Source of the DNA: Trypanosoma brucei
Taxonomy: Eukaryota
Reading direction: 5' to 3'
Assembly: GCA_000002445.1 (NCBI GenBank)
Contig: AL929603.2
Span: forward strand, 512,001-576,000
DNA: 64,000 nt
Shown: one piece after another, positions 9,080-63,452 of the stretch
Layout of the letters: every line of letters starts with the position of its first letter
Numbering within the stretch: the stretch's first letter is position 1
The notes under the pieces: model-generated
Told to the model about the DNA's origin: nothing
The model's database searches: none
What the model saw: the letters and a program-made list of their open reading frames with translations, nothing else
Made by a program: the position numbers and the translations under genes

Positions 9080-10462
9080 CTAAAACATACAAAAAAGGGA
9101 AAGAATTAATAGCATAACAACACCAGTTTTCACATCTATATAATAGAAACAATCATTATTTACCCCAGTATCATAACCTTCACTGTCACTTTCACCTTGA
9201 GCTCGGTTACTTTTCCATAGCCCAGCATCACCACCAAGTTTCACCTCAAGAAATATTTCCTCTGCCTCATGTTGGTATTCTTCCAATTCGTGAAGATGAC
9301 TGTCAGACTCTTTGGCATACTTTGCCATTTCTTGTAGTTGCTCGGTGGCGTTAGTAAGATGGTTGTACCAAGGAATCCCACCATTTTCAAGTGTGTGATT
9401 GTAACTGACACATGTGAATCCAGCAGTGTAACCCAGGCACGTGCTATTCTCGTTATGGTCTGTTCTCACGTAGCCAAGAATACCCTTTACCTGATGGCCA
9501 TTCTGTCCCAAATTCACTAATGCATCAAACTGAGCTAATGCACTCTTTAAGGTTTTCACATTAGATGCAACATTTTTGTATGCACAAGCCTTACTAATCA
9601 CATCCCAAGCCTCAGTATGGTTGTATTTTATTTTCTTAGGGTCGCACTTGCTGTTATCACCTTTACAAGAATCAGCCATCATAGTCCAACTACCATTTTC
9701 AGGTCTCCTTATTTCATCCTTGCAAGGACAGTTATATCCATTATATATATTGTCATCACTACTGTCTTCGACATCTGAATCATGGTGATGTGTCCCTCTC
9801 TCTTCTTTCTTAACAATGTCGATAGCCTCCCCAACACATAGGCAGAAGAAGTCATTAATTAGTGTCTTTCCAACTAGCTTGTCTCCAAAAGAACCGCAGC
9901 TCGTGGCTGCATTGTAGACACTATTGAACAGCAGTGATTTGTTTCCTCTCATGGCTTCCTCCAGAGTTTTATTCTCATTTCTTGCCACATCCACAGCGTC
10001 GCCATACACAGCTCTCAACATATTTTCCTCAGCAGAACGACTTGCATTTAGCGATCTTGTCCTATTCACTTCTATTTCTTCCTTAAGTTTTTTAGCCTTC
10101 TCAAATAGTTTCTTCATCTCCTGATATGCTGTCGTGCTGTTAGATGAATTGCTCGAGCCCTTATTGCCAGCAACAGTTTCTGCCTCACTGACCATTTCCT
10201 CCAACTTCTTCAGAATCTCTCCTTCCTTCTCACGATTCTTAAAGGAGGGTTGTGGGGCCTCTGCTTGCGTGATTCGGTAAATCCTGCACAGTGTCTCGAA
10301 TTCACCAACGTTGTGGTGCTTTTCTTCTTGATGGACATTATCCCTGATCGCCCTCCAATCAATCAACTCGGGGGTCCACTTGAAAGACCACATATCACCC
10401 TGAGAGGAAGGAGATAAGACAGCCGCAAGCAACGCAATGGCAAACACTGTTTCGCGCCTCAT
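9080..10462 (-). CDS. VSG-related / VSG-like GPI-anchored surface glycoprotein (lone antisense gene)
   Basis: Minus-strand ORF. Start placed at 'MRRETVFAIALLAAVLSPSSQG' (signal-peptide-like). The in-frame upstream extension 'MSLNNNND...' is rejected. The protein has a long helical/coiled N-terminal region and many N-glycosylation sequons (NSS, NST, NRT, NAS, NKT, NHT, NGS, NAT...). It is Cys-rich in the middle and C-terminal parts ('FFCLCVGEA', 'YNCPCKDE', 'DSCKGDNSKCD') and ends in a hydrophobic GPI-signal-like tail 'GVVMLLILSLFCMF'. Size (~460 aa) and architecture are typical of trypanosome VSG/VSG-related proteins. Exact family not resolved. Confidence 0.6.
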   Translation of the reverse strand: MRRETVFAIALLAAVLSPSSQGDMWSFKWTPELIDWRAIRDNVHQEEKHHNVGEFETLCRIYRITQAEAPQPSFKNREKEGEILKKLEEMVSEAETVAGNKGSSNSSNSTTAYQEMKKLFEKAKKLKEEIEVNRTRSLNASRSAEENMLRAVYGDAVDVARNENKTLEEAMRGNKSLLFNSVYNAATSCGSFGDKLVGKTLINDFFCLCVGEAIDIVKKEERGTHHHDSDVEDSSDDNIYNGYNCPCKDEIRRPENGSWTMMADSCKGDNSKCDPKKIKYNHTEAWDVISKACAYKNVASNVKTLKSALAQFDALVNLGQNGHQVKGILGYVRTDHNENSTCLGYTAGFTCVSYNHTLENGGIPWYNHLTNATEQLQEMAKYAKESDSHLHELEEYQHEAEEIFLEVKLGGDAGLWKSNRAQGESDSEGYDTGVNNDCFYYIDVKTGVVMLLILSLFCMF

Positions 10463-12292
10463 CGTGATTTTGCCTCTACATTCATTAGTCAAAGAGAGGG
10501 ACAAAAGCTTATCATTACAGTCATTATTGTTATTGAGAGACACACCCAGTAAACAAATACATCAATATATCGAAGTTAATAAGTGCCTGGGACAAACCAG
10601 CTGCTGCAGCATCCAACAAAGGGGGAAACACACACCAATACACATATTTACATGGGTTCACCCTCCTAAGCTGCATATTAACATTAAACACCCTCACAGC
10701 TGTTTTCCCATTGATTATCTTACTCTTACATATATCTGCATACAATAAATCCACTTTCTTAAACACCATGCTAGATCCTCCACTTTCCCAAGTGGACTGT
10801 GCTCCAGCCTTTTTGATTTCCTCAACAAGCTTATCTATTCTCCTATCGAGCACCTGTACATTTATGTTAAAATTATCCAAATCCTCCATTGGCTTTATTA
10901 ACTTCGGCTGCTACCTTATTGCTTTATTCGCTAGCACATTGCGTACTTAATCCGGACACATGTGTTACCTTTATCCAATGAACACCACTTTGCCGTTAAG
11001 CTTTATTTAGCATATCATCCTTTCTTCATGCATGTGCTGACACAACACTCTTCGTTGCCCTCTCTGCGTGCATGCACAGCTCCTTGCCTTCCATTTTCTT
11101 AAATCACACACTCTTAAAGGTAACAGTTAAATTTTCAAAACGCTTTCATTAGACACTTGTTTTTATTGAAACGTTTCATAATACTGTGATATGATGGAAT
11201 ATTATGTTAGTTGCCAACACACAAAACAGTCCCAGAACAACAAGTGACCTTCCCCATCAGCATCCTCATTTATATTATTTGCGACATAAAAATAATCACC
11301 ATCCTCTCAGTTAACTCTTGCCATCCTCACACCATATGCAAAGAGCATTAACACACTCCACCACCCCAGAGGAAAAATAATGGAGGGGCAGCCTTATTTA
11401 TCATCACTCACGATTAAAATAACTCAAAACAGAAACACTCCAACGAAAGAAATTATAACCTACGACAAACATGTAAGCACACACATGCAAAGATATGTAT
11501 GTTTATCACTATTGTGGGGAGGAGGAGTTATTTATATGAATGCACTTCCTCATAGTAATACAACTAGTACTATTCACACTGCCAATAAGATTCGTGTCGA
11601 GTTGCAGTTAGGCAACATTTCTGTTTACTTCGCTAAAGCATGAAAGGGTGTAAAAAATATATCTGACATCAGCTGGAGGTAAACGGAAGACGATTATTCA
11701 GTAGCATCGAAAAACAATGATGAGAGAAGTGAAGATGTCATGCACTTCATTGACAGAAAGAAAACATTTACATTTCACTAAACAATTAAAGTCATTTACA
11801 GAGCCACTCATAAATAAATTATCCCGTGGAATGGGGCACCTGCTTATGCTTCCACTGACACAATCCCATAATGGACGATATTCGCCATATTGGGATACGG
11901 ACTTACCTATTTAATATCACCCCATACCGTGATAACTGTCTCCATAATAGCCGTGTAGTACGTATTTGCTTTCACAAGAGCATTATATCATATATTGCTT
12001 ACTTCCCTGACACATTCATTATCTTCAGCGAATAATACACCAGCCTTAGCTACAAGATATCCCATTACACTCCAATAAGATATATGTTATCCCTGTCAGT
12101 CACTTTCACTCTGACATCAAACATACAGGATGCTATTGTGTATACTTCCCCATTAACAAACAAGTCCTGCTCCTCACCCCTAACGTAAAGTTCTCTTCAG
12201 TTTATTCAAAAGTTAACTAACACAACATACAAACATAATTAGCTTATATTTTGGGAAATCATATACTGATCCGCTGATACATGCTGCAACAC

Positions 12293-19582: not shown

Positions 19583-22500
19583 ATGTCGGAGTTCGAACTT
19601 ATGAGTGAACTGAGTGAAAGCGCAGCAAAGGGTGCGCTCAGCGAACAGGCAGAAGATGGTCATCGTACCTACTCTCCTGGGCCTGAAGAGGAAGAAAACC
19701 CTGATGCAGCAGGGCGTGAAGGCGCGGCAAAAGATGGATTGGATGCTCATGCTGAAGAGGCCTCCCCAGCGCCATCACCTGCAGGTGAATCGGATGAAAA
19801 GGCCAGCAAATCTGAGCATGAAAGTGAGGCAAAGGAAGGGTCGGATGGCCGTGCTGAAGAGGCCTCCCCAGCGCCATCACCTGCAGGTGAATCGGATGAA
19901 AAGGCCAGCAAATCTGAGCATGAAAGTGAAGTGAAGGAAGGGTCGGATGGCCGTGCTGAAGAGGCCTCCCCAGCGCCATCACCTGCAGGTGAATCGGATG
20001 AAAAGGCCAGCAAATCTGAGCATGAAAGTGAAGTGAAGGAAGGGTCGGATGGCCGTGCTGAGGAAGCTTCCCCAGCGCCATCACCTGCAGGTGAATCGGA
20101 TGAAAAGGCCAGCAAATCTGAGCATGAAAGTGAAGTGAAGGAAGGGTCGGATGGCCGTGCTGAAGAGGCCTCCCCAGCGCCATCACCTGCAGGTGAATCG
20201 GATGAAAAGGCCAGCAAATCTGAGCATGAAAGTGAAGTGAAGGAAGGGTCGGATGACCGTGCTGAGGAAGCTTCCCCAGCGCCATCACCTGCAGGTGAAT
20301 CGGATGAAAAGGCCAGCAAATCTGAGCATGAGAGTGAGGCAAAGGAAGGGTCGGATGGCCGTGCTGAGGAAGCTTCCCCAGCGCCATCACCTGCAGGTGA
20401 ATCGGATGAAAAGGCCAGCAAATCTGAGCGGGAAAGCGGGACCGCTGACGGGTCAAGCGGTCGTCCTGAAGAAGTTTCCCATGCGTTTTCACCTAATAGG
20501 GAATTGGAGGACAAGGCCAATAAATCGGGAGGCGAGAGTGTGACCAAGGGCTCGGATGGCCGCCCCGAAGATATTTCTCATCCGTTTTCACCTAATAGGG
20601 AATTGGAAGAAAAAGCCAATAAATCGGAAGGCGAGAGTGTAACCAAAGATGGATCGGATGGTCATGCTGAAGAAACGTCTCCAGTGCAGTCACCTGAAGG
20701 AGAGGTAGGCGAAAGGTCTGCCGGGGCAGGATCTGATCATGAGAAACAGAAAGGCGAATCATGTTTCGATGACCGTGACACTGGCAATGATCAAGCTGTT
20801 GACCGCAATGCTCACGATGCAGCGCCCCATTTGGACGACAAACACACCAATGGGGCCGCTGCAGATGCTACCGATGCACCACGCCACACTCAAGAGGTCA
20901 ACGACCTGTTCAAGCCTCGAATGACACCTTACAAACAGCCTGACCGTTGGGATCCCATTGAAACCTATCTGGGAGAGGATGTCAGTGATGAGTTGGAGAT
21001 CACCACGGCACGTAAGCCCGTTTTCACCGATGAGGAGAAAGCTGACGTGCCAACCTTTAAGAATGGCGAACCAGACTATGAGGGTGAGTACCTTTCATGT
21101 TTCGATGAGCCTAATCTGCTGTACCGTATTTACAATCGTGAGGAGAAGACGTGGGCCTTCTACAACGACACATACAGCTATGAGATGCATGTACGATTCA
21201 CCTTTGCTAAACTCTCAAAACTTCAGGCACTGGGGAACACGAAGATGTACACTCAAGAGACAGGTGAGCATATTGCGGAAGTCATTGTATATCCTCGGGA
21301 GACCGAGATGTTCGTCAAGGGAAATGCTAATGGCTTTACAAGCAAGCTTCGAGCAGTCCCTCTAACGGAGGAGTACTACGCCCGGCGGCAAGAATTGGCA
21401 AACAACAAGATTCAAGAAGAAATCGCTCGCGTCAAAAGTATCGTTGGCGATGTAACAGATTCGGAGCAGGTTCTCAAGGCCTGTGTTGAAAATGGCATCC
21501 CTTTTGTTGACCTTGAGTTTCCACCATGTCAAGACTCTTTGGCGACCGGTGCAAAAAAGCCGTTCAAACGCCTTCCATGGGTTCGTCCTTCGCAATGCCT
21601 CCCCGATTACATGGCTGATCAGGTGCGCCTCTTCCGAGGACCAATTCGACCTGGCCAGGTGGACCAAGGAGAACTGGGTGACAGTTGGGTCATGTGCTCT
21701 ATAGCGGTGCTGACGGAGCGACCAGACAAGGTCGTCAACATGTTTCGTCACCCAACTGACCCAGAATTGGGTAAGAAGGAGCGTTCTGTGGGCGGTTACC
21801 GCGTATCTCTCAACAAGAATGGGCAATGGCGCAGCGTGATTGTGGATGACTATCTTCCCATGTCTGGTGGCAGGCTAAAATATGCAAAAAGCAGATACGA
21901 CCTCGCGGAAATATGGCCATGCATTCTGGAGAAAGCCTTCGCCAAGCTGCATAATAGTTATGCCAATATCTGCTCCGGTGATCCTCTCCACGCCCTCCAA
22001 GATATGACTGGTTTCCCGACCTCCAGGTTTGACGACGCCTTTGCCAACGCTCCCTTGTCTGGGAAGGACGATCTGTTCCAGGACTGGGTGAGGTATGTGA
22101 AGGCACAGTACCAGATTATCTTAAGCACACCTGGAAAGAATCCAAGAGACAAAGCTTCCGGCGAATGCCACACAGCAAGGCGGTACACAAGCGTGGGTCT
22201 CCTTACAGGTCATGCGTATGTGGTTCTCGATGCAGCATTCTTCCCCGAGTATGAGTTACGTTTGGTAAAGCTGCGTAATGCCTGGGGTCGTGGGTCGGAG
22301 TGGAACGGCGACTGGTCTGACGGCGACGAAAAGTGGGAACGGTATCCAGATGTGGCGGTGAAGTGCGGTTACAGCAATGGTGAGAGCGATGGCACGTTCT
22401 GGATGGCGTGGGATGCATGCTTGCGCTACTTTAACGGCGGGGGCGTGTGCTTCACGAGGAACTCAATCAACGATTACCGTGTACCCTCCACGTTTGTAAA

Positions 22501-44100: not shown

Positions 44101-46473
44101 GGTTCTAACGGTGGTGGTGAAGAGGATATCCTCCCAGGTCTGGTAAGTGGTACGCGCTCGCTGATTTGTGACATTTACTTTCCCAAAGGGTGCCCACTGG
44201 AGTCGTGTCCATCAAAATGTGACAATGACCGCGCCATGGAAGTCGGTTGCCCCATTGTTTTTCTTGCACGCCTGGTGTGCTGGACAGGGGCTGCAACACA
44301 TGATCCGTGTCCTTATGTCTCCTCTCGTGCGGAGGAGGCACTCAGTTGTTTACCACCACTTAGCGCGGGCGGCTTCTTCACGCAGCCAACAACCCCGAGG
44401 GAGTCAGGTGCGGTAGAAAAATCGACAAAAGTGCCCAGTGACGCCAAAAGTAGGAGGTTTTTATCGATGCTTCGTAGCTCTGTAATTCGGGTTCTAAAAC
44501 GGGGAATGCGAGGGACAGGCAATCGTTCTGACGGTGCTGCATCACGAGGCAAGGCAGCCGGTGTGGAACGCGATCGTCGACTTAGTAATGAAAGTGGTGG
44601 CGTCGCGGACGTTCAGACTCTCGCGTGCGACGCTGTTTTACCACGCAGGATCGTTTCCACTGGTAGTGGTGCAGCTGTCGCATCCTTTGTTTTCACTCTT
44701 CTGGGTTTCCTGGACGAGCTGTTGCTAGTACCAATGGACGATGATGATCCACGAAATACCTTTAACCTTAGGAGGGACTTCTGCATGAGAGAGTACGTGC
44801 ACAAGGTGAGAAATGAATTGCGGCTGTCAGCGCCCCCCGCTGGTTATAGTGGTGATAGCTGTAACCTACCTGCGGTGCCATCCCCACCTCTCCCGACCTG
44901 GTCCCCACCAGTCTCTCACGTCGAGGGTGTAAAACCATTAGTTGACGAGGAAAGGGAACCGAGCGCCATGTTATCTCCCACTGGGAGCCAACTCCCCCTG
45001 ATCAACCTTTCGATAACTTCCGACACGAGCCTTGGGGCGTCGGCTTGGTCACACCCGGTCAGCAACGTTTCATTTGAGCATGACGGGCTTATCGGCGTGA
45101 TGGCATTCCACATGGCGGAACGGCATCTCGTAACGGGAACCTCTCATGGTACGGTGCAGGTTTGGTCGTGGAGCGCGGAAGAGCATCTCACCGCCATGGC
45201 TGGCCGTTCCTCTACTGCCCTGAGCGCGGCGTGCTCATTAACGGCGGCAACAGCGTCGGCAAGCACATCACCGGCCACATCAGTCGGTGTGGGTTCCACC
45301 TCTGTTCATGTGAAAGCGACGTGCCGGTGGATTTCAGATATTTGTGCCCCGGCGGTAACGTCGTGGGTTGATCCCGTTGCATTTGCCAGGACTACAACGC
45401 TGTATAATCAACAGCAGCAATCGGGTCCGCGAAAAAAGATGACCTCTGGGATCATTGCCAAGTCGTCGCACGGGTGGGTGGGGCTTCCGTGGAACATCCA
45501 TTCGGCCTGGCAGTGTCCTGAGGAAGATAGCCCGGTTATTTCCGAGCACTGTGCTACGAATTCTATCAAGTCGGTTACTGGATTACATTTTGTAGATGCC
45601 GCCTATCGCACGTTGTTGTGCGTAGTGGGTTCCTCGGGGTCGGTGCAGCTCTTCATGGACTACGCTGGTGGGACTGCAGTGAAGCGTGTCACCTCATTTG
45701 CGACTGCGGCATGCGGGGGGAGATGTGGCGGGGGTCGCATGCCTTGTCTTTCCTCCTATCATGTACCAGCGACTTTATTGCATGTAAGTGGGCCTGATGG
45801 GTTGATTGACTCATGGGATTTGGTGTGTGAGCACAAGGTTTTGGAGGGCATTGGTAGCCAACAGTCATCCTTTATTATGCCCTCTGTTATAACACCAAGC
45901 TCCACTGATGATTCAACCGTAGCTGTTGGCGCCGGTTCGGTTTACTTATTTGATCTGCGAAAACCCGCTCGGGCCACTTGTATTTTCCCTAGCAGCGCAG
46001 AGTCGGAGGATGACGCGGCAAAGCCGCCTGTAGGTGGTGCAGAAAATTCGAAGGGCACGTGCCTCCATATAAGTTTCCCTTATTGCTATCCCCATGTTAT
46101 TGTGACGGGATATGGTGGCGCGAAGGGGGTTGTAACGCTTTGGGATAAGCGGTTTCCCCGCGACCCTCTTCGGCAGGTGGTGGTGGCGGAGCCGGTTGCC
46201 CCCGCTTCATCGGCTTTACGCAATCCCGTGTGTCGAATGGATGTGCAGCCGTATCATCAAACCCTCTCAACCGTATCAGCGACTGCAGATGCGATTTTCA
46301 TTAGTGATGTTATGGAAGAGTCTGCAGTGAATGGACAGGCGAGGGCCTCGTACACGCGAGTGAAGGAACTCCCTGGTGCGGTGGCTTTTCATCCCATACT
46401 TCCGATTTGTGCTGTAGCGACTGGAGGGCCGCCGCGTATTTACGGTCGTAGCACGACATGTGTGTATGATTAG
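41182..46473 (+). CDS. RAPTOR: Raptor (regulatory-associated protein of TOR; TORC1 subunit) homologue
   Basis: 1763-aa ORF. N-terminal caspase-like RNC domain: 'KVIFHYGGYGVPRPQSGLIYLM' (human '[23 protein letters not shown]'), 'LVVVADCPNASELLRNF' (human 'IFVYDCSNAGLIVKSF'), 'SDILTSCLMTPLQMALLWFMVEN' (human 'DLFTSCLTTPIKIALRWFCMQ'), 'LFREDVVVAPLFRGFLLAERII' (human '[22 protein letters not shown]'). C-terminal WD40-like repeats ('GTSHGTVQVWSW', 'KGVVTLWDKR'). An alternative start at Met17 ('MNFWTV', 41230) is possible. Confidence 0.85.
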   Translation: MPCCLLPSRRFEPLRSMNFWTVPSVDDIPPNVSSGTDLEPRTAVEVEAVERRRWLRLVQEAWLRRGRRVPLSEREPPAGGIAAEAAVVPAATTAVVVSININPLLWGEEGDGNQEENSIQALDAPYVFGWRSLGLLPGDSFNILGELGKQLERRYQALSKRSLMVKHCHNTEVSRLHRGLMQCRERAGGRGKVIFHYGGYGVPRPQSGLIYLMEPSGSAVKCRTRTLFEKVGLPLVVVADCPNASELLRNFLRCQSSPKPEHNTGSDAEGDTSFAQGPPDADRPTLRVPHEGTAGVSSFDAGSEETCATSSVLSDFFFLGATFSGELPQHPKLPSDILTSCLMTPLQMALLWFMVENDSLTDIHPLLPFLIPGALDDKKTPLGQLHWATMAIMECIAWSSLPYKTFVHLFREDVVVAPLFRGFLLAERIITALGGEVCVYPPLPHMGNHPQWDSLDCIIGRTFVSLKRAVQPAPPTSLTTLEFREWLDWNVTKWRCEQRSMSLPSLGNRPVTVPDFLEEELRCLMAVAERVTEQSLFHCGGIAWHQCRRPGHIGPHRTGPRKVSIYRGMGEEAAVDPLLACSTGSNDLSGCGCSGGAFMRPFPSVAGLPMLLQGLLVVAHRDEAMKVLCRFIDAGLSAAAACAKVGIFDMALARFWSRSDLQHLLPSMLFVYAKACYADPSLAGLAWAQRSAVTTSCLKALERPFSLPSDPPAGPGLWQCKELGYWLESEGQRVLSSAILSMTSFSFDQDRKYLLESGALNLCSELLRDASVRVPLLQRGSAEVYINQSRGSRVQHHFVATTDAYAARLTTSITSLLALFVALTWKASALEPGAARPINAGTEGALTNGSGGEQKLGLEELASPLKTLHLLSWASSSIIRGAALKAISVTMSSSCTDEATSLRCIHIIVECANVLVAPREGNMSNRIDLVDIVFLSIRWLVRYLSAHMPMETVRASVQCASEKIYRASEAGEGGSNGGGEEDILPGLVSGTRSLICDIYFPKGCPLESCPSKCDNDRAMEVGCPIVFLARLVCWTGAATHDPCPYVSSRAEEALSCLPPLSAGGFFTQPTTPRESGAVEKSTKVPSDAKSRRFLSMLRSSVIRVLKRGMRGTGNRSDGAASRGKAAGVERDRRLSNESGGVADVQTLACDAVLPRRIVSTGSGAAVASFVFTLLGFLDELLLVPMDDDDPRNTFNLRRDFCMREYVHKVRNELRLSAPPAGYSGDSCNLPAVPSPPLPTWSPPVSHVEGVKPLVDEEREPSAMLSPTGSQLPLINLSITSDTSLGASAWSHPVSNVSFEHDGLIGVMAFHMAERHLVTGTSHGTVQVWSWSAEEHLTAMAGRSSTALSAACSLTAATASASTSPATSVGVGSTSVHVKATCRWISDICAPAVTSWVDPVAFARTTTLYNQQQQSGPRKKMTSGIIAKSSHGWVGLPWNIHSAWQCPEEDSPVISEHCATNSIKSVTGLHFVDAAYRTLLCVVGSSGSVQLFMDYAGGTAVKRVTSFATAACGGRCGGGRMPCLSSYHVPATLLHVSGPDGLIDSWDLVCEHKVLEGIGSQQSSFIMPSVITPSSTDDSTVAVGAGSVYLFDLRKPARATCIFPSSAESEDDAAKPPVGGAENSKGTCLHISFPYCYPHVIVTGYGGAKGVVTLWDKRFPRDPLRQVVVAEPVAPASSALRNPVCRMDVQPYHQTLSTVSATADAIFISDVMEESAVNGQARASYTRVKELPGAVAFHPILPICAVATGGPPRIYGRSTTCVYD

Positions 46474-58481: not shown

Positions 58482-59810
58482 ATGCGCGAAATCGTCTGCG
58501 TTCAGGCTGGCCAATGCGGCAACCAGATCGGCTCAAAGTTCTGGGAGGTGATCAGTGACGAGCACGGTGTGGACCCCACAGGTACCTACCAGGGTGACTC
58601 TGACCTGCAGCTGGAGCGCATCAATGTGTACTTTGATGAGGCAACGGGAGGTCGCTATGTGCCCCGCTCCGTGCTGATTGATCTGGAGCCAGGTACAATG
58701 GACTCCGTACGTGCTGGCCCCTATGGTCAGATCTTCCGCCCCGACAACTTCATCTTTGGACAGTCTGGCGCCGGCAACAACTGGGCAAAGGGCCACTACA
58801 CGGAGGGTGCGGAACTGATCGACTCTGTGCTCGATGTGTGCTGCAAGGAGGCGGAGAGCTGTGACTGCCTCCAGGGCTTCCAGATCTGCCACTCCCTTGG
58901 TGGTGGTACTGGCTCCGGCATGGGTACGCTGCTCATCTCGAAGCTTCGCGAGCAGTACCCTGACCGTATCATGATGACTTTCTCCATCATCCCATCCCCC
59001 AAGGTGTCCGACACTGTCGTCGAGCCGTACAATACGACTCTCTCCGTGCACCAACTTGTGGAAAACTCCGATGAGTCGATGTGCATTGACAACGAGGCAC
59101 TGTACGATATTTGCTTCCGCACCCTGAAACTGACAACACCAACGTTCGGTGACCTGAACCACTTGGTGTCTGCTGTTGTGTCCGGCGTCACCTGCTGCCT
59201 GCGCTTCCCTGGTCAGTTGAACTCTGACCTCCGTAAGTTGGCTGTGAACCTTGTCCCATTCCCGCGTCTGCACTTCTTCATGATGGGCTTCGCCCCGCTG
59301 ACCAGCCGCGGCTCGCAGCAGTACCGCGGTCTCTCCGTGCCCGAGCTAACGCAGCAGATGTTCGATGCGAAAAACATGATGCAAGCTGCAGATCCTCGTC
59401 ACGGCCGCTACCTGACAGCGTCTGCACTCTTCCGCGGCCGCATGTCGACGAAGGAGGTTGATGAGCAGATGCTGAACGTGCAGAACAAGAACTCGTCCTA
59501 CTTCATTGAGTGGATCCCGAACAACATCAAGTCCTCTGTTTGCGATATCCCACCCAAGGGACTCAAGATGGCTGTCACCTTCATTGGCAACAACACCTGC
59601 ATCCAGGAGATGTTCCGCCGTGTGGGAGAGCAGTTCACCCTCATGTTCCGTCGCAAGGCGTTCTTGCACTGGTACACTGGCGAGGGTATGGACGAGATGG
59701 AATTCACGGAGGCAGAGTCCAACATGAACGATCTCGTGTCTGAGTACCAGCAGTACCAGGATGCCACGATTGAGGAGGAGGGCGAGTTCGACGAGGAGGA
59801 GCAATACTAG
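58482..59810 (+). CDS. TUBB: Beta-tubulin (copy 1 in window; first gene of the tubulin array)
   Basis: 442 aa, '[17 protein letters not shown]...[12 protein letters not shown]...[12 protein letters not shown]'. Canonical beta-tubulin. Identical in amino-acid sequence to the copy at 62124. Confidence 0.98.
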
Positions 59811-60441
59811 ACGCGGACGGGGCATTTCCCGTTCGTCATTAGCAGTAGGTAATGAAGATGTTTGTTTCTCGTCCCCTTTCTCCTTCGTCCTTCTGTCATT
59901 TTGTTCTTTTGTGTTTATGTTTTGTTGTTTTTTTCTTTAATTTTTTTTTTCTTCCACGTTTGTGTACATCCGCGCGCCACTCTATTCAGAGAGCCACGGA
60001 TAGTAGAGGAGGTGGGAAGGGTATATGAGGGACACGCGTACCATGATGTGGGATGTATTGGGGTCCCTGTCTGTCCTTACGTGACTATGTATGAACCGTC
60101 ACGTGTAAGATGAGCTAGTGAGATCAACAGTACAACTCATCAACACGCCTTCTTCTCGTTAAATGTACACAATCTTGATCCTCCACCTTTATGGGTCCCA
60201 TTGTTTGCCTCTTCCGCTGTGTGGAGTGCGCCTACACGCACTTCTCACTTCGTAAGTGGTGGTGGCGTAAGTATTCCCTAATGTTGACTCTATGTTCTCC
60301 TCTCCTCACCCCCTCGCGGTGCTGATTTCTGACAGATCTTCAAACACTAGTTTAAGCAAAGGACTATTCATCCGTTTATATTAGCAACAGTAGGTACTAG
60401 CACCACTAACAACAACAACAAAGCACTTCTATTTATTTATC

Positions 60442-61797
60442 ATGCGTGAGGCTATCTGCATCCACATTGGTCAGGCTGGTTGCCAGGTTGGTAACGCCTG
60501 CTGGGAATTGTTCTGCCTGGAACACGGCATTCAACCCGATGGTGCGATGCCCTCTGACAAGACGATTGGCGTTGAGGATGATGCGTTCAACACCTTCTTC
60601 TCTGAGACTGGTGCTGGCAAGCACGTTCCCCGCGCGGTGTTCTTGGACCTGGAGCCAACAGTGGTGGATGAAGTGCGCACTGGCACGTACCGCCAGCTGT
60701 TCCACCCCGAGCAGCTGATCTCCGGCAAGGAGGATGCGGCCAACAACTACGCTCGTGGCCACTACACCATTGGTAAGGAGATCGTCGACCTCTGCCTGGA
60801 CCGCATCCGCAAGCTCGCTGACAACTGCACTGGTCTTCAGGGCTTCCTCGTGTATCACGCCGTCGGCGGTGGCACTGGTTCTGGCCTGGGTGCGCTGCTC
60901 TTGGAGCGCCTCTCCGTGGACTATGGCAAGAAGTCCAAGCTCGGCTACACGGTGTATCCATCACCGCAGGTGTCGACGGCTGTCGTGGAGCCCTACAACT
61001 CTGTGCTCTCGACACACTCACTTCTGGAGCACACCGATGTTGCTGCGATGCTTGACAATGAAGCAATTTATGATTTGACTCGCCGCAACCTCGATATTGA
61101 GCGCCCCACGTACACCAACCTGAACCGCCTCATCGGTCAGGTGGTTTCCTCGCTGACAGCGTCCCTCCGCTTCGACGGTGCATTGAACGTGGATCTGACA
61201 GAGTTCCAGACAAACCTTGTGCCGTACCCACGTATCCACTTCGTGCTGACAAGCTATGCACCAGTCATCTCCGCAGAGAAGGCCTACCACGAGCAACTCT
61301 CTGTCTCTGAGATCTCGAACGCTGTGTTTGAGCCCGCCTCCATGATGACAAAGTGCGACCCCCGCCACGGCAAGTACATGGCGTGCTGCCTCATGTACCG
61401 TGGTGACGTTGTGCCAAAGGATGTGAATGCTGCCGTCGCGACCATCAAGACGAAGCGCACGATTCAGTTCGTGGACTGGTCTCCCACAGGCTTCAAGTGC
61501 GGTATCAACTACCAGCCACCCACGGTGGTGCCAGGTGGTGACCTTGCCAAGGTGCAGCGCGCGGTATGCATGATCGCCAACTCCACGGCCATCGCAGAGG
61601 TGTTCGCTCGTATTGACCACAAATTCGATCTCATGTACAGCAAGCGCGCCTTCGTGCACTGGTACGTCGGTGAGGGTATGGAAGAGGGTGAGTTCTCCGA
61701 GGCCCGTGAAGACCTTGCAGCACTTGAGAAGGACTACGAAGAGGTTGGTGCCGAGTCCGCGGATATGGACGGTGAGGAGGATGTGGAGGAGTACTAG
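60442..61797 (+). CDS. TUBA: Alpha-tubulin
   Basis: 451 aa, '[30 protein letters not shown]...[12 protein letters not shown]...DGEEDVEEY'. Canonical alpha-tubulin with C-terminal Tyr. Confidence 0.98.
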
Positions 61798-61984
61798 AAA
61801 GTGTGACAACGTCGCACCATGTGTAGGTTTTCATTTACGTTCTTTCTTTCTTTTGTGAATTTGTTTTCTGTCTCAAATGTTTTTAATTCGCTTGGGACCT
61901 ATGTTTTTCTTGTTTTTTTGCTCACCCTTTGTGTAGGAGGCATCCTGTCACGTCTGTGGTTGCGTGTATGCCTTCCTTCCCCTT

Positions 61985-62073
61985 ATTCGCTTCTTCCTGT
62001 CGTGTCACACCTCTTTCTCTCTCTCCCTTTCCGCCTTTTCTTTCAATCTTGTTTTCTCGACCAGCCCTACTAG
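61985..62073 (+). promoter_or_regulatory. Polypyrimidine tract + AG in the alpha->beta tubulin intergenic region (candidate beta-tubulin SL acceptor; equivalent copy at 58343-58431)
   Basis: 'ttcttcctgtcgtgtcacacctctttctctctctccctttccgccttttctttcaatcttgttttctcgaccagccctactag' precedes the beta ATG (62124) by ~50 nt. This is a classic kinetoplastid trans-splice signal architecture. Confidence 0.55.
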
Positions 62074-62123
62074 AGGAGAAAGAATAGTAACCCTTTCATC
62101 AAAGAAAATAGTTCAAACGAATT

Positions 62124-63452
62124 ATGCGCGAAATCGTCTGCGTTCAGGCTGGCCAATGCGGCAACCAGATCGGCTCAAAGTTCTGGGAGGTGATCAGTGA
62201 CGAGCACGGTGTGGACCCCACAGGTACCTACCAGGGTGACTCTGACCTGCAGCTGGAGCGCATCAATGTGTACTTTGATGAGGCAACGGGAGGTCGCTAT
62301 GTGCCCCGCTCCGTGCTGATTGATCTGGAGCCAGGTACAATGGACTCCGTACGTGCTGGCCCCTATGGTCAGATCTTCCGCCCCGACAACTTCATCTTTG
62401 GACAGTCTGGCGCCGGCAACAACTGGGCAAAGGGCCACTACACGGAGGGTGCGGAACTGATCGACTCTGTGCTCGATGTGTGCTGCAAGGAGGCGGAGAG
62501 CTGTGACTGCCTCCAGGGCTTCCAGATCTGCCACTCCCTTGGTGGTGGTACTGGCTCCGGCATGGGTACGCTGCTCATCTCGAAGCTTCGCGAGCAGTAC
62601 CCTGACCGTATCATGATGACTTTCTCCATCATCCCATCCCCCAAGGTGTCCGACACTGTCGTCGAGCCGTACAATACGACTCTCTCCGTGCACCAACTTG
62701 TGGAAAACTCCGATGAGTCGATGTGCATTGACAACGAGGCACTGTACGATATTTGCTTCCGCACCCTGAAACTGACAACACCAACGTTCGGTGACCTGAA
62801 CCACTTGGTGTCTGCTGTTGTGTCCGGCGTCACCTGCTGCCTGCGCTTCCCTGGTCAGTTGAACTCTGACCTCCGTAAGTTGGCTGTGAACCTTGTCCCA
62901 TTCCCGCGTCTGCACTTCTTCATGATGGGCTTCGCCCCGCTGACCAGCCGCGGCTCGCAGCAGTACCGCGGTCTCTCCGTGCCCGAGCTAACGCAGCAGA
63001 TGTTCGATGCGAAAAACATGATGCAAGCTGCAGATCCTCGTCACGGCCGCTACCTGACAGCGTCTGCACTCTTCCGCGGCCGCATGTCGACGAAGGAGGT
63101 TGATGAGCAGATGCTGAACGTGCAGAACAAGAACTCGTCCTACTTCATTGAGTGGATCCCGAACAACATCAAGTCCTCTGTTTGTGATATCCCACCCAAG
63201 GGACTCAAGATGGCTGTCACCTTCATTGGCAACAACACCTGCATCCAGGAGATGTTCCGCCGTGTGGGAGAGCAGTTCACCCTCATGTTCCGTCGCAAGG
63301 CGTTCTTGCACTGGTACACTGGCGAGGGTATGGACGAGATGGAATTCACGGAGGCAGAGTCCAACATGAACGATCTCGTGTCTGAGTACCAGCAGTACCA
63401 GGATGCCACGATTGAGGAGGAGGGCGAGTTCGACGAGGAGGAGCAATACTAG
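62124..63452 (+). CDS. TUBB: Beta-tubulin (copy 2)
   Basis: Protein identical to the 58482 copy. Nucleotide-identical over all segments compared. Confidence 0.98.

What the first reader, a model, noticed from the sequence alone, without database searches (positions are those of the whole stretch)
19751..20700. Acidic phospho-type 34-aa tandem repeat (7 perfect + degenerate copies) fused to the N-terminus of a calpain-like protein
The repeat AEEASPAPSPAGESDEKASKSEHESE(A/V)KEGSDGR is strongly acidic. It contains SP motifs (proline-directed phosphorylation-type) and the copies are nearly nucleotide-identical. This indicates recent expansion or ongoing homogenisation. The copy number is probably polymorphic between strains and could be collapsed in assemblies. 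Degenerate older units (RPEEVSHAFSPNRELE[DE]KANKS...) follow, so the array has grown from the 5' side. Repeat domains on trypanosome cytoskeletal proteins (MARPs, CAP-type) often mediate microtubule binding or are immunodominant antigens.
Basis: partly seen in the sequence, partly recalled or inferred. Interest (0 to 1): 0.5.

Follow-up and report, generated by a model that had tools for sequence, protein, structure and literature searches.

The report
Acidic phospho-repeat tail of trypanosome CALP1.1
The repeat is real: it is the disordered, very acidic, phosphorylated N-terminal tail of the already annotated Trypanosoma brucei calpain-like protein CALP1.1 (Tb927.1.2100), its copy number differs between strains, and it is an ordinary though uncharacterised feature.

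Summary
The window is T. brucei TREU927 chromosome 1. The ORF at 19583-23023(+) is identical to XP_001218910.1, which is Tb927.1.2100 or CALP1.1. It has DUF1935 and calpain CysPc domains, and the catalytic Cys is replaced by Ser.

The 102-nt/34-aa array starts exactly at 19751. Units 1-6 are 92-100% identical and only units 2 and 3 are nucleotide-identical. Unit 7 diverges in its last third. Degenerate units lie on both sides (aa 23-56 and aa 295-395), so the "grown from the 5' side" reading is not supported.

T. b. gambiense DAL972 and a T. b. equiperdum assembly carry 5 units instead of 7. A T. equiperdum OVI contig breaks inside the array.

Unit variants are mostly synonymous (11 versus 6, p about 1e-3). 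Inter-unit dS (0.09-0.32) far exceeds inter-strain dS (about 0.01). The array is therefore old, recombining and under purifying selection.

Published phosphoproteomes report phosphorylation of both SP serines, one acidic-context serine and the TSP site of unit 10.

The tail lies well on the disordered side of the charge-hydropathy boundary. Each core unit is a high-scoring PEST motif.

T. congolense and T. vivax orthologues carry unrelated 33- and 32-aa acidic repeats at the same position.

Microtubule binding is unlikely and antigenicity is untested. Interest is low to moderate.

The parts
19583..23023 (+). CDS of CALP1.1 (Tb927.1.2100), 1146 aa, including the stop codon.
   Evidence: ORF. 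It is identical to P0014 (XP_001218910.1 / CAJ16288.1).
19649..19750 (+). Degenerate unit 0 (aa 23-56, AEDGHRTYSPGPEEEENPDAAGREGAAKDGLDAH), in register with the array.
   Evidence: Alignment to the core unit gives z = 3.7, reached by 9 of 2000 shuffles. The evidence is moderate.
19751..20362 (+). Core units 1-6 (aa 57-260), 102 nt / 34 aa each: AEEASPAPSPAGESDEKASKSEHESE(A/V)KEGSD(G/D)R.
   Evidence: Pairwise differences are 0-8 nt.
20363..20464 (+). Unit 7 (aa 261-294). Its first two thirds match the core, and its 3' third has diverged (…SERESGTADGSSGR). It is orthologous to the last unit of DAL972 and T. b. equiperdum, with 2 nt differences.
20465..20665 (+). Degenerate units 8 (33 aa) and 9 (34 aa): PE(E/D)(V/I)SH(A/P)FSPNRELE(D/E)KANKS…
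   Evidence: TRF reports a 99-nt period with 88% matches. Alignment to the core gives z = 8.4 and 9.7 for protein and z = 11 for DNA.
20666..20767 (+). Degenerate unit 10 (aa 362-395, AEETSPVQSPEGEVGERSAGAGSDHEKQKGESCF). It carries the phosphosites T365 and S366.
   Evidence: Alignment to the core gives z = 5.9. The phosphosites are in PMC4621835 Table 1.
20768..20992 (+). Non-repetitive acidic linker (aa 396-470). Conservation among orthologues begins at Q437.
   Evidence: Composition and invariant columns.
21056..21364 (+). DUF1935, the kinetoplastid calpain domain I(K) (aa 492-594).
   Evidence: Pfam E = 1.4e-34.
21503..22450 (+). Calpain CysPc domain (aa 641-956). Ser701 sits at the catalytic Cys position (GELGDSW). 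The GHAY histidine and the RNAWG asparagine are retained.
   Evidence: Pfam E = 3.4e-57. PDB calpain alignments are and the orthologue alignment.
22451..23020 (+). Beta-rich C-terminal region (aa 957-1146), conserved among orthologues. It is probably the calpain domain III-like module.
   Evidence: Predicted strands and conservation. The domain name rests on my knowledge of kinetoplastid CALP architecture and was not tested.

Best explanation
The feature is the N-terminal extension of T. brucei CALP1.1 (Tb927.1.2100). CALP1.1 is a calpain-like pseudo-protease with Ser in place of the catalytic Cys.

The extension is an intrinsically disordered polyacidic tail built from about 11 units of 33-34 aa. 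Six or seven of these form a near-identical core.

The array changes copy number and shuffles variants through unequal recombination or gene conversion between units. This is shown by the 7 versus 5 units between strains and by the mosaic unit haplotypes. The peptide sequence is nevertheless held by purifying selection.

Each core unit supplies a PEST-type segment (AEEASPAPSPAGESDE) with two proline-directed serines, plus serines in acidic context. These sites are phosphorylated in vivo and change strongly during developmental commitment.

Inferred mechanism: the tail is a multi-site phospho-regulated disordered module. It tunes the turnover, solubility or partner access of the folded DUF1935-CysPc-domain III body, and its dose is set by unit number. 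It does not act as a structural or microtubule-binding repeat.

Shown here: identity, anatomy, polymorphism, the selection signal, and composition typical of disorder. Taken from published data: the phosphorylation. Inferred only: the regulatory or turnover role.
For: Identity:
- The ORF equals P0014 / XP_001218910.1.
- Pfam DUF1935 and Peptidase_C2 match.
- GDSW replaces the calpain GDCW motif in T. brucei, and S, V, A or N occupy that position in all the orthologues.

Anatomy and polymorphism:
- The four-gamete test is positive between the 5' and 3' ends of the units.

Selection:
- There are 11 synonymous versus 6 nonsynonymous variant states among 14 core units of 3 strains, binomial p = 4e-4 to 2e-3.
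- S9-P10 of the unit is invariant in all 11 units, including the degenerate ones.
- Inter-unit dS is 0.09-0.32, against inter-strain dS of about 0.01.

Disorder:
- The tail lies far on the disordered side of the charge-hydropathy boundary (margin -0.13 to -0.15). The folded domains fall on the folded side.
- No secondary structure is predicted in aa 1-455.

Phosphorylation:
- S65.
- S81, S95, T365 and S366 rise by log2 +2.6 to +4.25 while the protein changes by only +0.36.

PEST:
- Each core unit scores +22.6 against a threshold of +5.

Conservation:
- All 11 orthologues (12 proteins counting TREU927 itself) carry an acidic N-terminal extension with pI 4.0-5.2 and no sequence conservation before Q437.
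- The paralogues CALP1.2 and CALP1.3 in the same window lack such an extension.
Against: - No experiment links the repeat to turnover, localisation or binding.
- PEST scores are high for almost any acidic, S/P-rich disordered segment. The T. cruzi orthologue has no PEST motif above threshold.
- [ST]P sites are abundant only in T. brucei (20, against 0-2 in orthologues). Proline-directed phosphorylation therefore cannot be the conserved function of the extension.
- The AlphaFold model is poor everywhere (mean pLDDT 41) and is low even in the calpain domain. It cannot confirm disorder on its own.
- The selection test rests on only 17 variant states, and these are not fully independent.
Confidence: 0.6

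Rival explanations
1. Neutral low-complexity expansion. The array is replication or recombination slippage in a tolerant disordered linker. It has no function of its own, and its phosphorylation is opportunistic.
For: - The repeat sequence is not conserved outside Trypanozoon.
- Copy number varies freely between strains.
- Orthologues manage with extensions of 98-324 aa of unrelated sequence.
- RNAi of the released peptidases, including this one, gave no growth phenotype in an earlier screen, as quoted in PMC9184580.
Against: - There is an excess of synonymous over nonsynonymous variants between units.
- The SP motif is invariant in all 11 units.
- The units are much older than the strain split yet keep the same peptide.
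- An acidic extension is conserved in every orthologue.
- Phosphosite occupancy is regulated independently of protein level.
Confidence: 0.2
2. B-cell antigen or immune decoy. The tandem repeat of a released protein acts mainly as an immunodominant epitope array. It could then be useful for diagnosis, like the GM6 repeat.
For: [quoted passage not shown]
- Tandem-repeat proteins of trypanosomatids are frequently antigenic. This is general knowledge, and H49 is an example.
Against: - No serological data were found.
- The gene is also highly expressed in insect stages, namely early procyclic and pre-metacyclic forms.
- Purifying selection on the unit is the opposite of immune-driven diversification.
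Confidence: 0.12
3. Cytoskeletal or microtubule-binding repeat, as in MARP or CAP-type proteins.
For: - Some kinetoplastid calpain-like proteins are cytoskeleton-associated, for example CAP5.5 and the H49/GM6 proteins.
- PMC4621835 refers to Tb927.1.2100 as 'cytoskeleton-associated'.
Against: - Each unit has net charge -6, no aromatic residues and, at most, one valine as its only aliphatic residue. Phosphorylation adds further negative charge. Microtubule surfaces are acidic, so direct binding is electrostatically unfavourable. This step is inference.
- PMC5617996 describes CALP1.1 as a soluble flagellar protein. However, the source it cites does not mention calpain in its text.
- The period and position differ from the 68-aa H49/GM6 repeat.
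Confidence: 0.04
4. Low-affinity, high-capacity Ca2+-binding polyacidic domain. It would stand in for the penta-EF-hand domain that kinetoplastid calpain-like proteins lack.
For: - The tail is 27-29% D+E.
- No EF-hand or other Ca2+-binding Pfam domain was found in the protein.
- An acidic extension is conserved across orthologues.
Against: This is pure analogy. No carboxylate motif is conserved, and nothing was tested here.
Confidence: 0.06

Closest known systems
Tb927.1.2100 / CALP1.1 of T. brucei TREU927 (XP_001218910.1) and its alleles in T. b. gambiense DAL972 (XP_011771380.1) and T. b. equiperdum (RHW74183.1)
   Same: The TREU927 protein is identical to the window ORF. The other alleles have the same architecture and the same unit.
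   Different: The other alleles have 5 rather than 7 core-type units, and their unit variants differ. The T. equiperdum OVI model (700 aa) is truncated by a contig break inside the array.
CALP1.1 orthologues of T. congolense IL3000 and T. vivax
   Same: The folded body is the same, at 63-68% identity. Both carry an acidic N-terminal extension with a tandem repeat of nearly the same period at the same position. T. congolense has 33 aa x 3.5 copies, 97% identical at DNA level. T. vivax has 32 aa x 2.4 copies.
   Different: There is no detectable similarity of protein or DNA sequence between the units (z between -1.1 and 1.6). They have almost no [ST]P motifs (1-2 against 20).
H49 (T. cruzi) and ClpGM6 (T. 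brucei, Tb927.11.1090) calpain-like repeat proteins of the flagellum attachment zone
   Same: They are calpain-like proteins with degenerate catalytic motifs. They carry blocks of near-identical tandem repeats flanked by degenerate units. Phosphorylation of both Tb927.11.1090 and Tb927.1.2100 changes during differentiation.
   Different: Their unit is 68 aa and sits centrally between calpain domains, in group-4 CALPs. They are cytoskeletal FAZ proteins and known antigens. Here the unit is 34 aa, it is N-terminal, and the protein has the group-1 DUF1935 architecture. Sequence similarity to the 68-aa unit was not tested.
CALP1.2 and CALP1.3, the tandem paralogues in the same window (24256-26325 and 28718-30916)
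   Same: They share the DUF1935 + Peptidase_C2 architecture.
   Different: They have no acidic repeat extension. CALP1.3 starts MGCGAS, a dual-acylation motif, and is a flagellar-tip protein. CALP1.1 starts MSEFEL and has no acylation motif.
PEST regions (Rogers-Wells-Rechsteiner) and multisite phospho-regulated disordered tails
   Same: Each unit has a K/R/H-bounded stretch rich in P, E/D and S/T, with a PESTfind-type score of +22.6. The serines in it are phosphorylated.
   Different: No measurement of turnover was available. Tandem amplification of one PEST unit seven times is not typical of such regions.

Membership tests
Calpain family (Pfam PF00648 / MEROPS C2) | CysPc papain-like core domain | tested here: met
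   Peptidase_C2 matches with E = 3.4e-57 across the full profile. Calpain-3, -9 and -1 structures match with E down to 2e-38.
Calpain family (active protease) | Catalytic Cys in the LGDCW motif, together with the His and Asn of the triad | tested here: not met
   The motif reads GELGDSW, with Ser701 at the Cys position. All the orthologues have S, V, A or N there. The His (GHAY, H877) and Asn (RNAWG, N899) are present. The wild-type motif is taken from general knowledge. The best PDB hit is an entry that also reads GDSW at this position; from memory it is a Cys-to-Ser calpain-3 construct, not checked here.
Classical calpain | C-terminal penta-EF-hand Ca2+-binding domain | tested here: not met
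   No EF-hand family appeared in the Pfam scan at E <= 0.01.
Kinetoplastid CALP group 1 (Ersfeld et al. 2005 classification, as summarised in PMC4181241) | Kinetoplastid-specific domain I(K) (DUF1935) followed by domains II and III | tested here: met
   DUF1935 matches with E = 1.4e-34 upstream of Peptidase_C2.
Kinetoplastid CALP group 1 | N-terminal dual acylation motif (MGC...), which is optional in the group | tested here: not met
   CALP1.1 begins MSEFEL, whereas CALP1.3 begins MGCGAS.
H49/GM6-type calpain repeat proteins | 68-aa unit located centrally between calpain domains, with FAZ localisation | tested here: not met
   Here the unit is 34 aa and lies N-terminal to DUF1935. Localisation is not testable with these tools.
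MARP/CAP-type microtubule-binding repeats | Direct binding of the repeat to microtubules | not testable with these tools
   Only the charge argument is available: net -6 per unit, plus phosphorylation.
PEST motif | At least 12 residues between K/R/H that contain P, D/E and S/T, with a PESTfind score above +5 | tested here: met
   My own re-implementation of the published scoring gives +22.6 for each of 7 units, +18.5 for unit 0 and +16.4 for unit 10.
PEST motif | Confers rapid or conditional degradation | not testable with these tools
   No turnover data could be consulted.
Intrinsically disordered region | Low mean hydropathy and high net charge (Uversky boundary), with no predicted structure | tested here: met
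   The charge-hydropathy margin is -0.15, while the folded domains used as a control give positive margins. AlphaFold shows no secondary structure in aa 1-455, but the model is poor overall.
Immunodominant tandem-repeat antigens of trypanosomatids | Recognition by sera from infected hosts | not testable with these tools
   The only related evidence is that the protein is in the released proteome of bloodstream forms.

The most novel reading that the evidence does not exclude
The three Salivarian lineages, T. brucei, T. congolense and T. vivax, carry acidic tandem repeats of 34, 33 and 32 aa at the same place in CALP1.1, with no residual sequence similarity. This could mean that the Salivarian ancestor already had an array of about 33 aa. 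On that reading, concerted evolution has replaced the sequence completely, while selection kept the period, position and charge. Such a tail would be a periodic polyanionic, and in T. brucei multi-phospho, 'rheostat' whose unit number tunes CALP1.1 function during life-cycle transitions.
Probability: 0.12. Interest if true: 0.5.

Novelty: already known. Interest (0 to 1): 0.22.

Why it matters
The gene is a named reference-genome gene, and the phosphosites in its repeat are already in public data sets. The main result is therefore a clarification of what the finding is.

Some practical points follow:
- The array is a ready-made length-polymorphic marker, with 5 versus 7 units between T. brucei subspecies and strains.
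- It is a documented trap for short-read assemblies and gene models. The truncated T. equiperdum model is an example.
- Phosphopeptides from the repeat map to several units, so published site numbers such as S61, S65 and S95 are ambiguous.

If the purifying-selection signal holds in population data, the tail would be a tractable case for asking what a copy-number-variable, multi-site-phosphorylated disordered tail does on a dead calpain. The large kinetoplastid calpain-like family still lacks defined functions.

Tried and rejected
1. A word-indexed protein search with the N-terminal extension returned nothing, not even the protein itself. It is therefore uninformative, probably because of low complexity. 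It is not evidence of absence.

2. A full HMMER scan of 1.84 billion representatives with aa 1-433 gave 8 weak hits, E from 6.5e-9 to 2.8e-4. All are unrelated tandem-repeat proteins, including helical repeats of about 34-35 aa (probably TPR/PPR-type) and other periodic proteins, matched through periodicity. I rejected them as homologues.

3. I tested homology of the T. brucei unit to the T. congolense and T. vivax units at protein and DNA level, allowing circular permutation. Scores did not exceed those of shuffles. The shared 'RPEE' start is not significant.

4. AlphaFold2 on the full protein with a 12-sequence alignment gave mean pLDDT 41, low even in the calpain domain. It is not usable as evidence of disorder beyond the absence of secondary structure. 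I did not run a fold search because the model is too poor.

5. An exact look-up of the window ORF in the assembly index found no record, although the identical protein is in the clustered collection.

6. I tried to verify the localisation statement that CALP1.1 is a soluble flagellar protein enriched at the tip (PMC5617996). The text of the source it cites does not mention calpain, and the held TrypTag supplements do not list the gene. Localisation stays unverified.

7. The Liu et al. 2010 paper is not held. Supplements of PMC4621835 and PMC2716717 are not held either.

8. The antisense ORFs of 284 and 266 aa inside the array were rejected as genes. They exist only because the repeated unit has no stop codon in those frames.
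Full report
**Observation**

Tandem Repeats Finder reports a 102-nt period at 19750-20436, with 6.7 copies and 96% matches. It is followed by a 99-nt period at 20468-20646, with 1.8 copies and 88% matches. A 53-nt core of the unit occurs seven times in the window and nowhere else, against none expected in shuffles.

The array is in frame within a 1146-aa ORF at 19583-23023(+).

Downstream of the repeat the ORF has Pfam DUF1935 (aa 492-594, E = 1.4e-34) and Peptidase_C2 (aa 641-956, E = 3.4e-57).

**Identity**

The ORF is residue-for-residue identical to P0014 (XP_001218910.1 / CAJ16288.1) from a 1,064,672-bp record. This is Tb927.1.2100, named calpain-like protein 1.1 (CALP1.1) in the literature.

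The surroundings fit T. brucei chromosome 1. They include:
- two further DUF1935 + Peptidase_C2 paralogues, at 24256-26325 and 28718-30916;
- small DUF1935-only acylated proteins;
- a raptor-like gene;
- the beta/alpha-tubulin array from 58482 onward.

The calpain catalytic-Cys position reads GELGDSW (Ser701). Every orthologue retrieved has S, V, A or N there, while the GHAY histidine and RNAWG asparagine are kept. The protein belongs to the calpain fold family but fails the catalytic-triad test, so it is a pseudo-protease. It has no EF-hand domain. Unlike CALP1.3 (MGCGAS), it has no N-terminal acylation motif: it starts MSEFEL.

**Anatomy of the array**

| Unit | aa | nt | Description |
|---|---|---|---|
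| 0 | 23-56 | 19649-19750 | Weaker, in-register degenerate unit; z = 3.7, 9 of 2000 shuffles |
| 1-6 | 57-260 | 19751-20362 | Core; pairwise differences 0-8 of 102 nt |
| 7 | 261-294 | 20363-20464 | Core-like for two thirds, then diverged; 16-21 differences |
| 8 | 295-327 | 20465-20563 | 33 aa, own subtype (PEEVSHAFSPNRELE...); z = 8.4 versus core |
| 9 | 328-361 | 20564-20665 | 34 aa, same subtype as unit 8; z = 9.7 versus core |
| 10 | 362-395 | 20666-20767 | AEETSPVQSPEGE...; again closer to the core; z = 5.9 |

Only units 2 and 3 are nucleotide-identical, so '7 perfect' overstates the identity. Degenerate units flank the core on both sides. The copies that are extra in TREU927 are internal: units 2, 3 and 5 differ from one another by 0-1 nt. 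This is the usual picture of a tandemly recombining array whose edges escape homogenisation. It is not growth from the 5' side.

**Polymorphism and assembly behaviour**

T. b. gambiense DAL972 (P0001, locus L001) and a T. b. equiperdum assembly (P0013, L002) encode 1078-aa proteins. Each has five units of the core type instead of seven, and the rest of the gene is collinear.

Individual units can be matched across strains. TREU927 unit 6 is identical to T. b. equiperdum unit 4. TREU927 unit 4 differs from DAL972 unit 2 by 1 nt. The terminal diverged unit differs by 2 nt between strains.

The T. equiperdum OVI contig ends precisely at the start of the last unit. Its annotated 700-aa protein is therefore an artefact of truncation.

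I cannot exclude that some five-unit assemblies are collapsed. However, their unit variants differ from each other and from TREU927, which argues against simple collapse.

**Evolutionary signal**

Among the 14 core units of the three strains, 17 columns vary. Eleven variant states are synonymous and six are nonsynonymous. Only 24-29% of possible mutations are synonymous, so the binomial p is 4e-4 to 2e-3.

Four-gamete violations between the 5' columns (6-12) and the 3' columns (78-95) show recombination or gene conversion within units.

Pairwise dS between TREU927 units is 0.09-0.32. The single-copy parts of the same gene differ between strains by dS of about 0.01. Most units are therefore much older than the split of the T. 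brucei subspecies, yet they encode almost the same peptide. This corrects the 'recent expansion' reading. Only part of the TREU927 array is recent.

Across all 11 units, degenerate ones included, E2, S9, P10, E13 and G30 are invariant.

One pattern has no firm explanation. Columns 16-62 of the unit, which encode PAPSPAGESDEKASK, are invariant in all 14 core units even at third codon positions. The probability is 1.6e-4 over all positions and 1.3e-3 over third positions.

**Physical nature**

The core has pI 4.35, 29% D+E, 21% S+T, 9% P, no aromatic residues, and four valines as its only aliphatic residues. The whole 470-aa extension has net charge -75.

On the charge-hydropathy plot the extension lies 0.13-0.15 below the order/disorder boundary. 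DUF1935 and the CysPc domain fall on the folded side.

The AlphaFold2 model shows no secondary structure before residue 455. The model is poor throughout (mean pLDDT 41) and adds little.

**Phosphorylation (published data)**

The supplement of PMC6907760 lists Tb927.1.2100 S65, in the window KDGLDAHAEEASPAPS*PAGESDEK. Localisation probability is 1 and PEP is 2.5e-79.

PMC4621835 lists four sites:
- S81 (HES*EAKE);
- S95 (EEAS*PAPSP);
- T365 and S366 (EET*S*PVQSP).

These rise by log2 +2.6 to +4.25 on commitment to differentiation, while the protein changes by only +0.36.

Both SP serines of the unit are therefore phosphorylated in vivo, and so is a serine in acidic context. Because the peptides recur in several units, the residue numbers are nominal.

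**PEST character**

Each core unit contains the K/R/H-bounded stretch AEEASPAPSPAGESDE. My re-implementation of PESTfind scores it +22.6 against a threshold of +5. Units 0 and 10 score +18.5 and +16.4.

**Comparison with relatives**

All retrieved orthologues have an acidic N-terminal extension of about 100-430 aa, with pI 4.0-5.2. These are from T. congolense, T. vivax, T. theileri, T. melophagium, T. conorhini and T. cruzi, plus four environmental or unnamed sequences. No column is conserved before Q437.

T. congolense has a 99-nt / 33-aa repeat of 3.5 copies at 97% DNA identity. T. vivax has a 32-aa repeat of 2.4 copies. The non-Salivarian species lack comparable arrays.

The T. brucei, T. 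congolense and T. vivax units show no similarity beyond composition, with z between -1.1 and 1.6. [ST]P motifs number 20 in T. brucei and 0-2 in the other species.

A scan of 1.84 billion representative proteins found only spurious repeat-versus-repeat matches.

The 34-aa unit is therefore specific to Trypanozoon. The conserved property is a disordered polyacidic extension. The dense proline-directed phosphorylation is an addition in T. brucei.

**Literature context**

Reports on CALP1.1 are scattered:
- It is more abundant in early than in late procyclic forms.
- Its transcript is high in pre-metacyclic cells.
- A review says it is up-regulated in bloodstream forms.
- It was found in the procyclic lipid-raft proteome.
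- It was among 12 peptidases in the released proteome of bloodstream forms.

A statement that it is a soluble flagellar protein enriched at the tip could not be verified from its cited source. No paper in the searchable library describes or tests the repeat itself.

**Interpretation**

The best-supported reading is a copy-number-variable, intrinsically disordered, polyacidic, multi-site-phosphorylated tail on a catalytically dead calpain-like protein. It is maintained by selection on the peptide. It most plausibly acts as a regulatory, PEST-like or solubilising module rather than as a structural repeat.

The identity and anatomy are essentially certain. The mechanism is inferred, and I give the composite explanation 0.6.

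The main rival is neutral low-complexity expansion (0.2). It is weakened by the excess of synonymous variants, the invariant SP motif and the regulated phosphorylation.

An antigenic role (0.12) and Ca2+ buffering (0.06) are untested and could coexist with the main reading.

Microtubule binding (0.04) is disfavoured by charge.

**Verdict**

It belongs to a gene that is already annotated and named, and it is a known kind of feature. Interest is low to moderate.

The additions from this analysis are the two-sided degenerate architecture, the evidence for an old array under constraint, the direct strain polymorphism, the assembly break, the PEST character, and the unrelated repeats of equal period in the Salivarian orthologues.

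Noticed in passing
window 19751-20362 (columns 16-62 of each 102-nt unit): A 47-nt block encoding PAPSPAGESDEKASK, which holds the S9-P10 phosphosite, is invariant in all 14 core units of three strains, even at third codon positions. Both flanks of the unit carry many synonymous variants. Random placement gives p = 1.6e-4 over all positions and 1.3e-3 over third positions. Possible causes are a preferred crossover or gene-conversion tract, or nucleotide-level constraint. It remains unexplained.
   Followed up: partly
L004 3046-3388 (T. congolense IL3000) and P0005 aa 29-104 (T. vivax): The CALP1.1 orthologues carry acidic tandem repeats of 33 aa (99 nt x 3.5, 97% identical) and 32 aa (x 2.4) at the same N-terminal position. 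They show no sequence similarity to the 34-aa T. brucei unit. The near-equal period in three Salivarian lineages may reflect an ancestral array or may be coincidence.
   Followed up: partly
L003 1-562 (T. equiperdum OVI, CZPT02001916.1): The contig ends exactly at the start of the last repeat unit. The annotated 700-aa 'calpain-like cysteine peptidase' (SCU72837.1 / XP_067083294.1) is therefore an N-terminally truncated model caused by an assembly break in the array.
   Followed up: yes
window 19638-20492 (-) and 19747-20547 (-): Long antisense ORFs of 284 and 266 aa lie entirely within the repeat. They exist because the repeated unit has no stop codon in those frames, and their translations are themselves periodic. 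They are artefacts and not genes.
   Followed up: yes
window 24256-26325 (+) and 28718-30916 (+): Two tandem paralogues with DUF1935 + Peptidase_C2, CALP1.2 and CALP1.3, lack the acidic repeat. The second starts MGCGAS, a dual-acylation motif, and corresponds to the published flagellar-tip protein Tb927.1.2120.
   Followed up: partly
window 34235-34657 (+) and 36865-37257 (+): Two small ORFs of 140 and 130 aa start MGLFLSK and MGCIQST. They resemble the DUF1935 region (…FNGLL(Y/F)RL…FYN(D/N)S…) and are probably small acylated kinetoplastid calpain-related proteins. I did not scan them against Pfam.
   Followed up: no
window 9080-10543 (-): A 487-aa ORF on the opposite strand matches the trypanosomal VSG_B domain (E = 3.9e-25). 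It is a VSG-related sequence at a chromosome-internal position upstream of the calpain cluster.
   Followed up: no
window 58482-63452 (+): Alternating beta-tubulin (442 aa) and alpha-tubulin (451 aa) genes mark the start of the tubulin tandem array at the right end of the window.
   Followed up: no
window 41182-46473 (+): A 1763-aa ORF matches the Raptor N-terminal caspase-like domain (E = 4.8e-13). The 351-aa antisense ORF at 40428-41483 overlapping its start is low-complexity and probably spurious.
   Followed up: no
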